A program made the translations under genes and the position numbers. From positions 52,994 through 116,993 of IMG/VR virus record IMGVR_UViG_3300027969_002800: a DNA stretch of 64,000 nt; one strand, written 5' to 3'. Position 1 is the stretch's first letter. Every line of letters starts with the position of its first letter. The DNA is from a virus. Below, one piece after another: positions 9,655 to 55,680 of the stretch. The notes under the pieces were generated by a model. That model saw only the letters and a list, made by a program, of their open reading frames with translations, did not search any database and had not been told where the DNA came from.

Positions 9655-9874
9655 TAATACCTCCAGTTATTGGTAAAGTTCCAAATGGTGTAGGTGTGCA
9701 ATCACAACTTCCTTTCCATGGAGCATTTATCTTTCCACATCTATGACATTCCCATGATAAAGAAACTTTAGGACATGTGCACATTTGTGGTTGTCCTGTA
9801 CTACTCCAAGTAAGAGGCATAGTTTTATATCCTCTACAAGTTGTACATATCTGAGGGAAATCAAAATTAGTCAT
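9569..9874 (-). CDS. Cys-rich zinc-ribbon protein
   Basis: [20 protein letters not shown]...CDC. Confidence 0.55.
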
Positions 9875-40674: not shown

Positions 40675-40702
40675 AAAAGCCCCTAGTTTCCTAGAGGCTT
40701 TA
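40675..40702 (-). terminator. Intrinsic terminator closing the ncRNA cluster
   Basis: AAAGCCTCTAG-GAAA-CTAGGGGCTTTT on the minus strand. Confidence 0.8.
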
Positions 40703-40869
40703 ATAGGACCTTCTCCCTTGAGAGATGTCAATTGTTGAGGTTAGGAACTTTGGATACCCTGCTTCTCTATGAGTACTCAACACCTTCTCTGCGTGGATAG
40801 GACTCAACATTCGTGGCATGCAAACTACCCAATGTCTGTTACTGTGCTATTTGCGTCAAGTAACTGCTG

Positions 40870-40965
40870 TGATTGAGACAGGACTTGAACCTGTATGTGT
40901 ACCGAGTTTATTTGGATTATGAGTACACTTAACCCAATTAGCGTCTACCATTTCGCCACTCAATC
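40870..40965 (-). ncRNA. Atypical tRNA-like RNA with no canonical anticodon arm
   Basis: Acceptor GATTGAG/CTCAATC, D-arm TGGCGAAATGGTAGACGC, T-arm ACAGG-TTCAAGT-CCTGT. Confidence 0.75.
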
Positions 40966-40982
40966 ATTTAATAATAGATAAA

Positions 40983-41486
40983 CTACATTTTATTTATATA
41001 AGATCTATTTGCAGATATATCACGTATTGTTGCATAAGGTATATCATACTCTATAGATAAATATTTCAAATCTAACTTTTCTTTATTAGTTCTTCTTAAT
41101 GAGATTATATTATATATCTGAGTAACTAAAGTAATATCAAATTGTCTATTAGGTGGTACATGTCCTTTTTGAAACTTTTTACCCTCATCTACTACTAATC
41201 TACCTTTAGCTTTACAATCTTGCATATTATCTTTCTGTGTACCTAAAAATAAATGATTAGGATTTACACATTTTCTGTTATCACATGTATGACAAACTTT
41301 TAATGTATTATCTGTGATATTACCGTAAATTAGCTCATATGATAATCTATGAGAACCATGTGTCTTATCTTTTGTTTTAAATGCACCGTATCCATTTGAT
41401 CTACATGATGCTGTCCATTCCCAACAATCATTCTCTGATTTGATACTTACTTTATCCCAGAATCTTTTAATTTGTTCTTCAGTCAT
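40983..41486 (-). CDS. HNH homing endonuclease within the RNA gene cluster
   Basis: RFWDKV...CWEW...GYG...HRLSY...VCHTCDNRKCVNPNHL.LGT..DN..D. Confidence 0.9.
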   Translation of the reverse strand: MTEEQIKRFWDKVSIKSENDCWEWTASCRSNGYGAFKTKDKTHGSHRLSYELIYGNITDNTLKVCHTCDNRKCVNPNHLFLGTQKDNMQDCKAKGRLVVDEGKKFQKGHVPPNRQFDITLVTQIYNIISLRRTNKEKLDLKYLSIEYDIPYATIRDISANRSYINKM

Positions 41487-41501
41487 AATATAATTATTTT
41501 G

Positions 41502-41550
41502 CCACAGGGATAAGAATTGAACTTACATTTACATACCATTATGCCCTGTG
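41502..41550 (-). ncRNA. 49-nt mini-tRNA-like element with no anticodon arm
   Basis: CACAGGG/CCCTGTG acceptor, CATA-ATGG-TATG hairpin, GTAAG-TTCAATT-CTTAT T-arm. Confidence 0.65.
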
Positions 41551-41882
41551 TGGTGGAGGTGGCGGCATACGATAGCCGCGTCCAAATTACGTTCATCAAT
41601 ACAATTTATACAGCTTATTTAGGGTCAAGCTCAGCTTAACGATCCACCACTCTGTTTAATCTAACAGAGAAATCTTCATTAATTTAGGCTGCTACACCAA
41701 GATCAGTATCTACATTCAATAATGAGAACACTTTGTTCATGTTAGCTTCGATTTGTGCGTTTGCTCCTAGAGCCACTACACGAGAATTGTTTTTGCCATT
41801 TAATTAAATTCACCTTAGTTTACAGTTATCTCTCTGGCTGATTGTATTAATTATTGGTAACCTGTCAAATCCAGTCACCCCC
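41551..41882 (-). ncRNA. ssrA: tmRNA (332 nt)
   Basis: 5' GGGGGTGACTGGATTTGAC; 3' CACCTCCACCA; G3.U70 pair; resume context TAAAT-GGC; tag ends in AA-stop. Confidence 0.93.
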
Positions 41883-42327
41883 AAAATTGTAGGATATCGC
41901 TTAACCTACGAAGTTGATCACACTTCTTTTCTATACGAACGATTTTTTTTAGCACCCAGTTTATATAGCTTGAATCTCTCAAGCACCATGCCTTATTAGG
42001 GTCTCTATATAAACTTAGGGTCACGTAGTAAGAGATGCTCTAAATGTTTTTTACAGATAGACTGGGACACATTACTACTTGCTGAGAACTCATTTGTGTT
42101 GTATATGCAGAAATTCTCATATCTTCATCTCATTATCTTTCTCAAGGATAACAACACATTCTACATCTCTGTAGACATCTTTATGTAAACACACTACTAT
42201 AGCCAAGTCTTTTAACGCAGACCTCATTAAGGCAGGCTTTTTGTTTACAAAGGTATTCAATGTTTAACCTATAGCTTCTAACAGATTATAAGTTCTGACG
42301 CTTTACACAGCTTAGCTATTTATTATG

Positions 42328-55410: not shown

Positions 55411-55575
55411 TAATAACAGTAGGCGTACAGCTTCCCATTATAGAACAGCGTATGTCTCTTTTTTCCGAGAAGAATCCCCTCACCTCCTCTCCCTCCTAGA
55501 GGGGAAGCTTCTCAAATTAGAGTGATGGATTGTGGTGTCCACAGTCGCATTCCATTCAATTGGAACACTCTGCAA

Positions 55576-55646
55576 GGCGGTTTAGTGTAATAGGTAGCAT
55601 ATCGGGCTCATAACCCAATGGCCAGGTTCGAGTCCTGAATCCGCAA
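55576..55646 (+). tRNA. tRNA-Met(CAT), initiator-like, with stem mismatches
   Basis: GGG-CTCATAA-CCC anticodon arm, unpaired 1:72, CAGG-TTCGAGT-CCTG; no encoded CCA. Confidence 0.8.
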
Positions 55647-55680
55647 CTAAAATAAACCAAATAAATTAAATTAACTACAT

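What the first reader, a model, noticed from the sequence alone, without database searches (positions are those of the whole stretch)
41502..41553. Anticodon-less mini-tRNA fused with zero spacer to the tmRNA CCA end
Seen: the base after the tmRNA CCA (41551) is position 1 of a perfect 7-bp acceptor stem (CACAGGG/CCCTGTG) with a T-arm (TTCAATT loop), a 4-bp hairpin with a TGG D-loop-like loop, and no anticodon arm. Known: RNase P recognises the acceptor stem plus T-arm, and MALAT1/mascRNA uses this geometry for 3' end formation. Inference: RNase P cleavage would release the mature tmRNA 3' end in one cut and liberate a small RNA that might act as a decoy.
Basis: partly seen in the sequence, partly recalled or inferred. 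Interest (0 to 1): 0.75.

Follow-up and report, generated by a model that had tools for sequence, protein, structure and literature searches.

The report
Mini-tRNA fold abutting phage tmRNA
A 49-base RNA fold shaped like the top half of a tRNA really does start at the base after a phage tmRNA's CCA end, but it belongs to a mobile endonuclease insertion that relatives lack, and most likely marks where tRNA-trimming enzymes cut.

Summary
On the minus strand, the tmRNA (41882-41551) ends in an encoded CCA. The next base starts a perfect 7-bp stem that stacks on a 5-bp arm with a canonical T loop. A 4-bp hairpin carries a GG loop, and there is no anticodon arm. A shape descriptor, written after seeing the element, finds 2 such shapes in the 117-kb genome against 0.033 per random genome.

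The context changes the reading. The element lies inside a ~700-nt segment (41578-40872) that kin lack. That segment holds a foreign tmRNA T arm plus CCA, the mini-tRNA, an HNH homing endonuclease and a long tRNA-like shell. None of 12 related phage records with the tmRNA locus has the mini-tRNA or the HNH gene, and 11 of 11 relatives have a normal T loop and no encoded CCA.

My best reading (about 0.5) is a tRNA-type processing signal. RNase P would cut at 41551/41550 to make the tmRNA end, and RNase Z would free the endonuclease mRNA. There is no covariation or RNA-end evidence, and the decoy idea has no support.

The same lineage has a separate anticodon-less tRNA-like element after the capsid gene, with strong covariation. 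This scan has noted mini-tRNA punctuation in other phages before.

The parts
41551..41882 (-). Phage tmRNA, standard one-piece form, with a G3-U70 acceptor and an encoded CCA (41553-41551).
   Evidence: Rfam RF00023, 72.8 bits, model 1-374. The body is 84-89% identical to the tmRNAs of related phage records.
41551..41583 (-). Foreign 3' end of the tmRNA. The T arm (41579-41562) has an 8-nt loop instead of TTCGANT. The acceptor 3' strand, discriminator A and CCA follow.
   Evidence: These 33 nt are identical to the acceptor piece of an otherwise unlike permuted tmRNA in L115. All 11 relatives have a canonical T loop and no encoded CCA. The break in similarity lies at 41579/41578.
41502..41550 (-). 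The anticodon-less mini-tRNA. Acceptor 5' strand 41550-41544; 4-bp hairpin with ATGG loop 41543-41532; linker 41531-41527; T arm 41526-41510; acceptor 3' strand 41509-41503; discriminator G 41502.
   Evidence: Sequence, folds and descriptor with random control. Identical in a contig of run X2 over 41505-41616. Also present in a ~5% diverged contig of run X3.
41487..41501 (-). 15-nt leader between the mini-tRNA discriminator and the HNH start codon.
   Evidence: Sequence. No promoter-like or terminator-like site was found here.
40983..41486 (-). HNH homing endonuclease gene, 167 aa.
   Evidence: ORF. PHROGs endonuclease and HNH families, E down to 1.2e-30. Homologues carry PF13392. Absent from 12 of 12 related records that hold the locus.
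40870..40965 (-). Long tRNA-like shell. Acceptor, D and T arms are normal, but the middle has no 7-nt anticodon loop. It starts 17 nt after the HNH stop codon.
   Evidence: Rfam tRNA 37.9 bits with a 32-nt insert. ARAGORN calls it 'Thr agt', 97 nt. Relatives L318, L325 and L326 keep the acceptor and T arm but have unlike interiors, for totals of about 97-190 nt.
40676..40701 (-). First terminator-like hairpin with a T run downstream of the unit.

Best explanation
The 49-nt element is a genuine tRNA-derived, or tRNA-mimicking, top-half module. It has an acceptor stem, a T arm and a GG elbow loop, and no anticodon arm.

It is part of a mobile HNH homing-endonuclease insertion that landed at the 3' end of this phage's tmRNA gene. 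The insertion replaced the gene's last ~28 nt with a foreign T arm plus an encoded CCA.

The tmRNA, the mini-tRNA, the endonuclease mRNA and the downstream tRNA-like shell appear to be read as one transcript. On that transcript the mini-tRNA would act as a tRNA-type processing signal. RNase P would cut between 41551 and 41550, leaving the tmRNA with a finished CCA-3'OH in one step. RNase Z or another 3' processing enzyme would cut after the discriminator (41502), freeing the endonuclease mRNA with a 15-nt leader. The insertion would thus leave tmRNA maturation intact while the endonuclease rides on a strongly transcribed stable-RNA unit.

Shown here: the structure, the abutment to the CCA, membership of the inserted segment, and the lack of a promoter or terminator signal between the tmRNA and the HNH gene.

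Inferred: co-transcription, both cleavages, and that this role is what selection maintains.
For: 1. The shape is real and non-random. There are 2 descriptor hits in the genome against 0.033 per random genome. The T loop fits TTCRANN with G53-C61, and there is a GG in the small loop.

2. There is zero spacer after the encoded CCA.

3. The encoded CCA and the mini-tRNA occur together only in this allele. Eleven of 11 relatives end ...CTCCA followed by something other than CCA, and have nothing tRNA-like next to it. The same holds for 3 contigs of runs X19 and X4.

4. The element is linked to the HNH gene and to the foreign tmRNA end in independent samples. X3 contig 40990-41584 has 32 differences; the 28 listed all lie at or before 41482, and 4 were not shown. 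X2 contig 41505-41616 is identical.

5. No terminator-like site lies between the tmRNA and the HNH gene. The first lies at 40701-40676. No TAnnTTTG box lies on the minus strand between 42247 and 41075. That motif is recalled from memory as the Bacteroidota -7 box, and it is not enriched in the window (97 found, 91 expected).

6. The HNH mRNA is flanked by tRNA-like folds on both sides, 15 nt before its start and 17 nt after its stop.

7. Precedents read here. A 7-bp acceptor stem makes a bacterial tRNA-like domain an RNase P substrate that also receives CCA (PMC4201824). Plant mitochondrial t-elements set mRNA ends through RNase P and RNase Z (PMC1920247). One permuted tmRNA gene has a whole tRNA-Ala in the segment after its CCA (PMC11915505).

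8. The same phage lineage keeps another anticodon-less tRNA-like fold after the capsid gene, with 18 of 21 pairs covarying. Such modules are therefore under selection in this lineage.
Against: There is no RNA-end evidence. All laid runs were contigs, and the one RNA run holds only the allele without the element.

There is no diverged homologue, so no covariation. Exact-word scans of IMG/VR found nothing relevant. A covariance model of the element found 0 of 50 related records at E <= 1, although that model was built from one sequence and sees only close copies.

The nearest-neighbour energy does not favour the T arm. Its pair probability is 0.14, and the MFE is an extended hairpin 0.5 kcal/mol better than the tRNA-like fold. 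The fold z-score is only -1.64.

The -1 base is A and +1 is C, and the 3' tail is GCA rather than RCCA. From recall, none of these is the preferred bacterial RNase P context.

In four other phage contigs, unrelated HNH genes also sit right after a tmRNA CCA (L122, L123, L127, L125). They have plain hairpins there, with no T arm. A tRNA-like module is therefore not required for that arrangement.

The element does not score with the model of the lineage's conserved capsid-gene element.
Confidence: 0.5

Rival explanations
1. It is a decaying tRNA remnant that hitch-hiked with the endonuclease. The HNH gene previously sat in a tRNA cluster. A neighbouring tRNA that had lost its anticodon arm was carried along by co-conversion. 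The element has no selected role here, although host enzymes may still cut it.
For: Free-standing homing endonucleases carry flanking DNA with them. Here the tmRNA 3' end itself is foreign: 33 nt are identical to L115. The element has no detectable homologue in 50 related records. Its interior is AT-rich and thermodynamically ambiguous. This genome holds other odd tRNA-like genes.
Against: Both stems are perfect: 7 of 7 and 5 of 5 pairs. The T-loop consensus, the G53-C61 pair and the GG loop are all intact. The start falls exactly at the base after the CCA. A random deletion would rarely remove the anticodon arm cleanly and leave a 5-nt linker. No relative has a full tRNA at this place (0 of 12).
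Confidence: 0.3
2. It is a 5'-UTR hairpin of the endonuclease gene. It stabilises the mRNA, controls translation, or attenuates read-through from the tmRNA. The tRNA likeness of its interior is incidental.
For: Other HNH genes that follow a tmRNA CCA (L122, L123, L127, L125) also have a hairpin between the CCA and the start codon. In L122 that stem is likewise followed by GGCAAAAT before the ATG. The MFE of the element is one long interrupted hairpin.
Against: The stem ends 15 nt before the ATG and does not cover the start region. There is no T run, and the terminator scan reports nothing here. A canonical T loop with G53-C61 set flush against a 7-bp stem is expected about 0.03 times per genome by chance.
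Confidence: 0.12
3. It is a released small RNA with a job of its own. It would act as a decoy or mimic for a tRNA-binding factor such as SmpB, EF-Tu, a synthetase, a tRNA-modifying enzyme or a host anti-phage tRNA nuclease.
For: A molecule that is little more than the tmRNA tRNA-like domain exists in mycobacteriophage DS6A, and a similar molecule inhibits tmRNA (PMC4131195, passages read). The element has the elbow features that tRNA-binding proteins read.
Against: It has no alanine identity: C3-G70 rather than G3-U70, and G73 rather than A73. It has no encoded CCA of its own. There is no anticodon loop for anticodon nucleases to bind. It is confined to the HNH-bearing allele rather than conserved in the lineage.
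Confidence: 0.05

Closest known systems
t-elements of plant mitochondria (tRNA-like processing signals; PMC1920247, passages read)
   Same: A non-decoding tRNA-like fold with a conserved T arm, embedded in a longer transcript. Its 5' and 3' ends are expected to be cut by RNase P and RNase Z and so to set the ends of the neighbouring RNAs.
   Different: This one is in a phage, not an organelle. It is much smaller (49 nt against ~74 nt). It abuts a stable RNA (tmRNA) with zero spacer, and it rides in a homing-endonuclease insertion. Cleavage has not been shown here.
mascRNA/MALAT1 3'-end module (Rfam RF01684)
   Same: A tRNA-like fold directly downstream of the mature 3' end of a long RNA, so that one RNase P cut makes that end and releases a small tRNA-like RNA. 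I recall this mechanism; I did not read it here.
   Different: No sequence or model relation: there is no Rfam hit at E <= 10 in 40800-42000. mascRNA is eukaryotic and keeps an anticodon-like arm.
Permuted tmRNA gene with a whole tRNA-Ala in its intervening segment (PMC11915505, passages read)
   Same: A tRNA-shaped unit lies in the stretch that follows the CCA of a tmRNA acceptor piece, where tRNA-processing enzymes must cut.
   Different: That is a full, high-scoring tRNA inside a two-piece tmRNA gene. Here the gene is one-piece, the unit lacks the anticodon arm, and an endonuclease gene follows.
tRNA-like domain of bacterial Y RNA YrlA (PMC4201824, passages read)
   Same: A non-decoding tRNA mimic with T-arm and D-arm features. 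The version with a 7-bp acceptor stem is cut by RNase P and receives CCA.
   Different: YrlA is a Ro60 partner with a second, protein-binding module. I saw no Ro60 gene or such module here, and Rfam gives no such hit.
Group I introns with homing endonucleases in the tmRNA T loop (PMC11915505); also seen here in relative L319
   Same: A mobile endonuclease-associated element colonises the 3' tRNA-like part of a tmRNA gene without destroying it.
   Different: Here there is no intron. The endonuclease gene is free-standing, downstream of the CCA. RNA integrity would be restored by tRNA-type cleavage rather than by splicing.
Anticodon-less mini-tRNAs between phage genes, noted earlier in this scan (e1-5939577, e1-5955806, e1-5356103, e1-3488083; unchecked AI notes)
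   Same: Short top-half tRNA folds placed just before a phage gene, read as cut marks for host tRNA-processing enzymes.
   Different: Those are arrays in early operons of other phage groups and form conserved families. This is a single copy, fused to a tmRNA end, inside an HNH insertion, and I found no family for it.

Membership tests
Canonical tRNA (Rfam RF00005) | 7-bp acceptor stem stacked on a 5-bp T stem with a TTCRANN loop and G53-C61 | tested here: met
   Sequence and descriptor.
Canonical tRNA (Rfam RF00005) | Anticodon arm with a 7-nt loop | tested here: not met
   Only 17 nt lie between the acceptor and the T stem: a 12-nt hairpin plus a 5-nt linker.
Canonical tRNA (Rfam RF00005) | Reaches the family score (29 bits) or is called by ARAGORN | tested here: not met
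   No tRNA hit at this place even at E <= 10. ARAGORN lists only 40869-40965 and 55576-55647.
tRNA-like processing signal (t-element kind) | Non-decoding tRNA-like fold with an intact acceptor and T arm inside a longer transcript | tested here: met
   The fold is met. 'Inside a longer transcript' is inferred from the zero spacer and the lack of terminator or promoter signals.
tRNA-like processing signal (t-element kind) | Ends of the fold coincide with mapped RNA termini; cut by RNase P and RNase Z | not testable with these tools
   Only contigs could be laid, and no begin/end table was produced.
mascRNA-menRNA (RF01684) | Match to the family model | tested here: not met
   No hit at E <= 10 in 40800-42000.
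   With filters off over the whole window at E <= 10, only 55519-55575 scores (74.5 bits). Nothing appears at 41502-41550.
tmRNA tRNA-like-domain-only / alanine mini-tRNA | G3-U70 pair, A73 discriminator, CCA end | tested here: not met
   C3-G70, G73, followed by CA.
Intrinsic terminator | G+C-rich hairpin with a short loop followed by a T run | tested here: not met
   The enclosed region is 34 nt and the tail is GCAAAATAATT. The scan reports no site here.
Free-standing homing-endonuclease insertion (the wider unit) | Endonuclease gene present in some and absent from other otherwise collinear genomes, with altered flanking target sequence | tested here: met
   0 of 12 related records with the locus have it. 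Contigs join 40871 to 41579 across a canonical T arm. The flanking tmRNA end is foreign. Endonuclease activity and its target site were not tested.

The most novel reading that the evidence does not exclude
Homing endonucleases that colonise phage tmRNA genes may carry a portable repair kit. The kit would consist of a replacement tmRNA 3' end whose altered T loop is immune to cutting, an encoded CCA, and a minimal tRNA-shaped cut mark. With the cut mark, host RNase P would restore a perfect tmRNA end and at the same stroke release the endonuclease's own mRNA. This would be an RNA-level counterpart of the self-splicing intron, built from tRNA-processing signals instead of a ribozyme.
Probability: 0.25. 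Interest if true: 0.8.

Novelty: new variant of a known kind. Interest (0 to 1): 0.55.

Why it matters
tmRNA needs an exact CCA end to be charged. How that end is made is known for only a few bacteria, and not for phage tmRNAs. A tRNA-shaped cut mark fused to the CCA would be a new and very economical route to that end.

It would also show how a selfish endonuclease gene can settle inside a stable-RNA gene without harming it, using the host's tRNA enzymes where introns use splicing.

The lineage also has a covarying tRNA-like element after the capsid gene and a tRNA-like shell after the tmRNA. Together these suggest that an abundant group of freshwater phages uses anticodon-less tRNA folds as general RNA punctuation. 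That idea is testable with one RNase P assay and one small-RNA library.

If the element is only a remnant, the finding still documents a mosaic tmRNA gene and a hot spot for mobile elements.

Tried and rejected
Searches for homologues of the element:
- The exact junction 22-mer found 0 hits in IMG/VR.
- The T-arm 17-mer found 5 hits, all unrelated coding contexts.
- Model R1 found 0 of 50 related records. The window itself scored 83 bits as the positive control.

Searches through the HNH protein:
- IMG/VR relatives reach at most 54% identity, and none of the 28 loci has a tRNA or tmRNA by ARAGORN.
It returned nothing closer than a 64% partial hit cut at the contig start.
- The genome scan with P0007 found only a 42% match.
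- The phage collection gave at most 45% identity over the full length.
- Closer homologues exist, P0001-P0022 at 56-87% identity.

ORF221 relatives (77 loci) gave three distant phage tmRNAs with no mini-tRNA.

Ideas considered and dropped:
- An intron reading of the locus. The tmRNA acceptor is complete at 41551, so nothing needs splicing.
- A split-tRNA reading. Both acceptor strands lie upstream of the HNH gene.
- Descent from the intervening segment of permuted tmRNAs. The sequences show no likeness.

Parts of the stretch that runs X2-X4 and X19 did not cover are not used as evidence. Supplements of the papers were not opened, and the tmRNA database tables (PMC11915505) might list this T-loop variant.

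Literature searches for phage mini-tRNAs or a tRNA-like unit after a tmRNA found no such description. One search listed 15 of 93 papers, one search found 6, one search found 1, and one search listed 12 of 82.

Full report
WHAT IS THERE

The window is the right-hand 64 kb of a 116,993-bp IMG/VR virus record that CheckV rates as complete. It encodes terminase, portal, major head protein and a DNA polymerase.

On the minus strand, Rfam finds a one-piece tmRNA at 41882-41551 (RF00023, 72.8 bits, full model). ARAGORN does not call it. Its acceptor stem has the G3-U70 pair, and it ends in an encoded CCA at 41553-41551.

The next base, 41550, opens a perfect 7-bp stem (41550-41544 with 41509-41503). 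A 5-bp stem abuts the 3' strand of that stem with no spacer. Its 7-nt loop, TTCAATT, fits the T-loop pattern and keeps the G53-C61 closing pair. Between the acceptor and the T stem lie 17 nt: a 4-bp hairpin with the loop ATGG, then a 5-nt linker. There is no anticodon arm. The discriminator is G (41502), followed by CA.

IS IT MORE THAN CHANCE?

I wrote a descriptor for this shape. It requires a 7-bp acceptor with G-T allowed, an adjoining 5-bp T stem with G53-C61, the loop TTCRANN, and 8-75 nt between the acceptor 5' strand and the T stem. It hits two places in the whole genome on both strands: this element and the long tRNA at 40870-40965. Three hundred first-order Markov genomes gave 0.033 hits each, and 10 of 300 had any hit. 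I wrote the descriptor after seeing the element, so the figure is generous. The exact start at the base after the CCA comes on top of it.

Some results count against a strong fold.
- The z-score is only -1.64, and 12 of 200 shuffles fold as well.
- The tRNA-like fold (-11.9 kcal/mol) is second to an extended hairpin (-12.4 kcal/mol).
- The T stem has a pair probability of 0.14, while the acceptor stem has about 1.0.
- Rfam's tRNA and mascRNA models give no hit here at E <= 10.

CONTEXT

Downstream on the same strand come these features:
- a 15-nt leader;
- a 167-aa HNH endonuclease gene at 41486-40983 (homologues carry PF13392);
- 17 nt;
- a 96-nt tRNA-like shell at 40965-40870, with normal acceptor, D and T arms but no 7-nt anticodon loop;
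- about 170 nt;
- a terminator-like hairpin at 40701-40676.

No terminator-like site lies between the tmRNA and the HNH gene. No TAnnTTTG box lies on the minus strand between 42247 and 41075. I recalled that motif as the Bacteroidota -7 box, and it is not enriched in the window. One transcript across all these parts is therefore the simplest reading, but it is inferred.

RELATIVES

The capsid protein has at least 599 relatives in IMG/VR, and the 80 loci kept are 95-98% identical. This is an abundant phage lineage. Runs that hold parts of the locus are mostly freshwater and lake metagenomes.

I searched all 80 fetched records with the 1,301-nt locus. Twelve hold the tmRNA region, and none holds the stretch with the mini-tRNA and the HNH gene.

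I read what follows the tmRNA in ten of these loci:
- L317 and L321 run straight into the sequence that follows the tRNA-like shell in the window.
- L320 runs into a terminator.
- L318, L325 and L326 have a 146-176-nt spacer and then the shell. The shell keeps the same acceptor and T arm, but its interior is quite different, and it measures about 97-190 nt.
- L319 has a group I intron (RF00028, 94.1 bits) inside the tmRNA T loop.
- L322, L323 and L324 differ again.

A further tmRNA, 81.7% identical, in L236 ends the same way. In all 11 relatives the T loop is canonical (TTCGANT) and no CCA is encoded.

Public-run contigs agree with this. One RNA-library contig (X19) and two DNA contigs (X4) join window position 40871 directly to 41579. 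They do so through 22 letters that spell a canonical T arm and acceptor strand.

Two other contigs carry the window's arrangement. In X3, a 642-nt contig covers 40990-41584 with 32 differences. The 28 listed differences all lie at or before 41482, and four were not shown. In X2, a 157-nt contig is identical over 41505-41616 and then runs on unlike the window.

THE tmRNA END IS FOREIGN

The window's last 33 tmRNA bases are identical to the acceptor piece of a permuted tmRNA in an otherwise unlike phage contig, L115. They comprise GGAC, a T arm with an 8-nt loop, the acceptor strand, A and CCA.

Eleven IMG/VR contigs share this T-arm type. Loop positions 2 and 6 covary among them (A-T, T-A, C-G).
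- Seven are permuted genes.
- Four are one-piece genes in which an HNH gene follows the CCA directly: L122, L123 and L127 carry one kind, and L125 another. Both kinds are unrelated to the window's HNH.

An alignment with kin puts the break at GGAC|G.

The mini-tRNA thus sits between two pieces that are both foreign to this lineage. It is part of an insertion or replacement of about 600-700 nt (41578 to about 40983, or to 40872 when compared with relatives that also lack the shell).

HOW IT MOST LIKELY WORKS

The element has what RNase P, RNase Z and the CCA-adding enzyme read: a 12-bp acceptor/T helix and a T loop with a GG partner loop.

Published work that I read supports this inference.
- A bacterial tRNA-like domain with a 7-bp acceptor stem is cut by RNase P in vitro and in vivo and then receives CCA. 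Versions without the 7-bp stem are not cut (PMC4201824, passages).
- Plant mitochondrial t-elements set mRNA 5' and 3' ends in this way (PMC1920247, passages).
- RNase P separates polycistronic tRNA transcripts in E. coli (PMC2190699; I saw only the search listing and the start of the abstract).
- One permuted tmRNA gene has a whole tRNA-Ala in the segment after its CCA (PMC11915505, passages).

The co-occurrence of the encoded CCA with the zero-spacer mini-tRNA makes sense. Kin without an encoded CCA can use the RNase Z plus CCA-addition route. From established knowledge that I recall, an encoded CCA blocks RNase Z. A cut by RNase P at the next tRNA-like unit would then give the finished end directly.

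A cut after 41502 would free the endonuclease mRNA. The shell 17 nt after the stop codon could bound it on the other side.

I put this reading at about 0.5. The rivals are a hitch-hiking tRNA remnant (0.3), a plain UTR hairpin (0.12) and a free-acting small RNA (0.05). The decoy idea fails the one test available: the element lacks the alanine identity set (C3-G70, G73).

WHAT ELSE THE LINEAGE SHOWS

This is a Y-shaped fold between the capsid gene and tRNA-Met. It has a 6-bp closing stem, a long hairpin, and a T-like hairpin with a TTCRRT loop. Its z-score is -3.05.

It is a conserved family. A covariance model finds it in 73 of 81 sources, giving 53 distinct sequences. On an alignment fitted to the model, 91.2% of cells pair, and 18 of 21 pairs change on both sides. 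None of 500 shuffles reached the observed values, and all slid controls were far lower. The element stays in place in relatives that lack the tRNA-Met.

The mini-tRNA at 41502-41550 does not score with this model. The two are analogues, not members of one family. Even so, anticodon-less tRNA-like folds are clearly under selection in this lineage.

COMPARISON AND NOVELTY

In function the element would be a t-element or mascRNA-type cut mark. It is a member of neither family by sequence or model.

My literature searches found no description of a tRNA-like unit fused to a tmRNA end, or of phage mini-tRNAs as punctuation. Earlier notes of this scan report anticodon-less mini-tRNA arrays in other phage groups. 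Those notes are unchecked by me.

I therefore class it as a new variant of a known kind. The new points are the fusion to a tmRNA CCA and the carriage inside a homing-endonuclease insertion that also swapped the tmRNA's T arm. For this element the evidence for function is structural and contextual only.

Noticed in passing
window 55519-55575 (+); L237-L316: A conserved Y-shaped, anticodon-less tRNA-like fold lies right after the major head protein gene, with or without the following tRNA-Met. It was found in 73 of 81 sources (53 distinct sequences). 18 of 21 pairs covary and 91% of cells are paired. It is probably a 3'-end processing or stabilising signal for the capsid mRNA.
   Followed up: yes
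window 40870-40965 (-); L318, L325, L326: A tRNA-like shell lies downstream of the tmRNA. The acceptor (GATTGAG/CTCAATC) and T arm are conserved among relatives, but the interior is hypervariable, giving totals of about 97-190 nt. In L318 there is an insertion in the D loop. It looks like a natural tRNA scaffold carrying variable cargo.
   Followed up: partly
window 41562-41579 (-); L111, L113-L116, L122-L127: A tmRNA T-arm variant with an 8-nt loop (T-N-TCG-N'-A-T, where N and N' covary) replaces the canonical T loop. It occurs in 11 IMG/VR contigs, both permuted and one-piece. Four of them have an HNH gene right after the CCA. It may be a form that resists endonucleases aimed at the normal T loop.
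   Followed up: partly
L319:1798-2013 (intron core; insert about 1817-2530): A relative's tmRNA gene is split in the T loop (after TT) by a group I intron (RF00028, 94.1 bits). The tmRNA 3' region is thus a hot spot for mobile elements in this lineage.
   Followed up: partly
L122, L123, L127 (after the tmRNA CCA): After the CCA, the last 11 nt of the tmRNA are repeated 10 nt downstream. They form the 5' arm of a 10-11-bp hairpin just before an HNH gene. This may be a displaced original gene end or a target-site copy.
   Followed up: no
records G070, G074, G080: Three of the 7 related records rated at least 90% complete have no match to the tmRNA locus at all. The tmRNA is therefore an accessory gene in this phage lineage.
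   Followed up: no
window 9813-9839, 7075-7109 (+), 8455-8493 (-): Weak hits of model R2 (E 0.2-0.65) are plain hairpins followed by ACAA, ACTA or GCAA. Both tRNA-like elements have the same tail. This may be a shared 3'-side motif, or chance.
   Followed up: no
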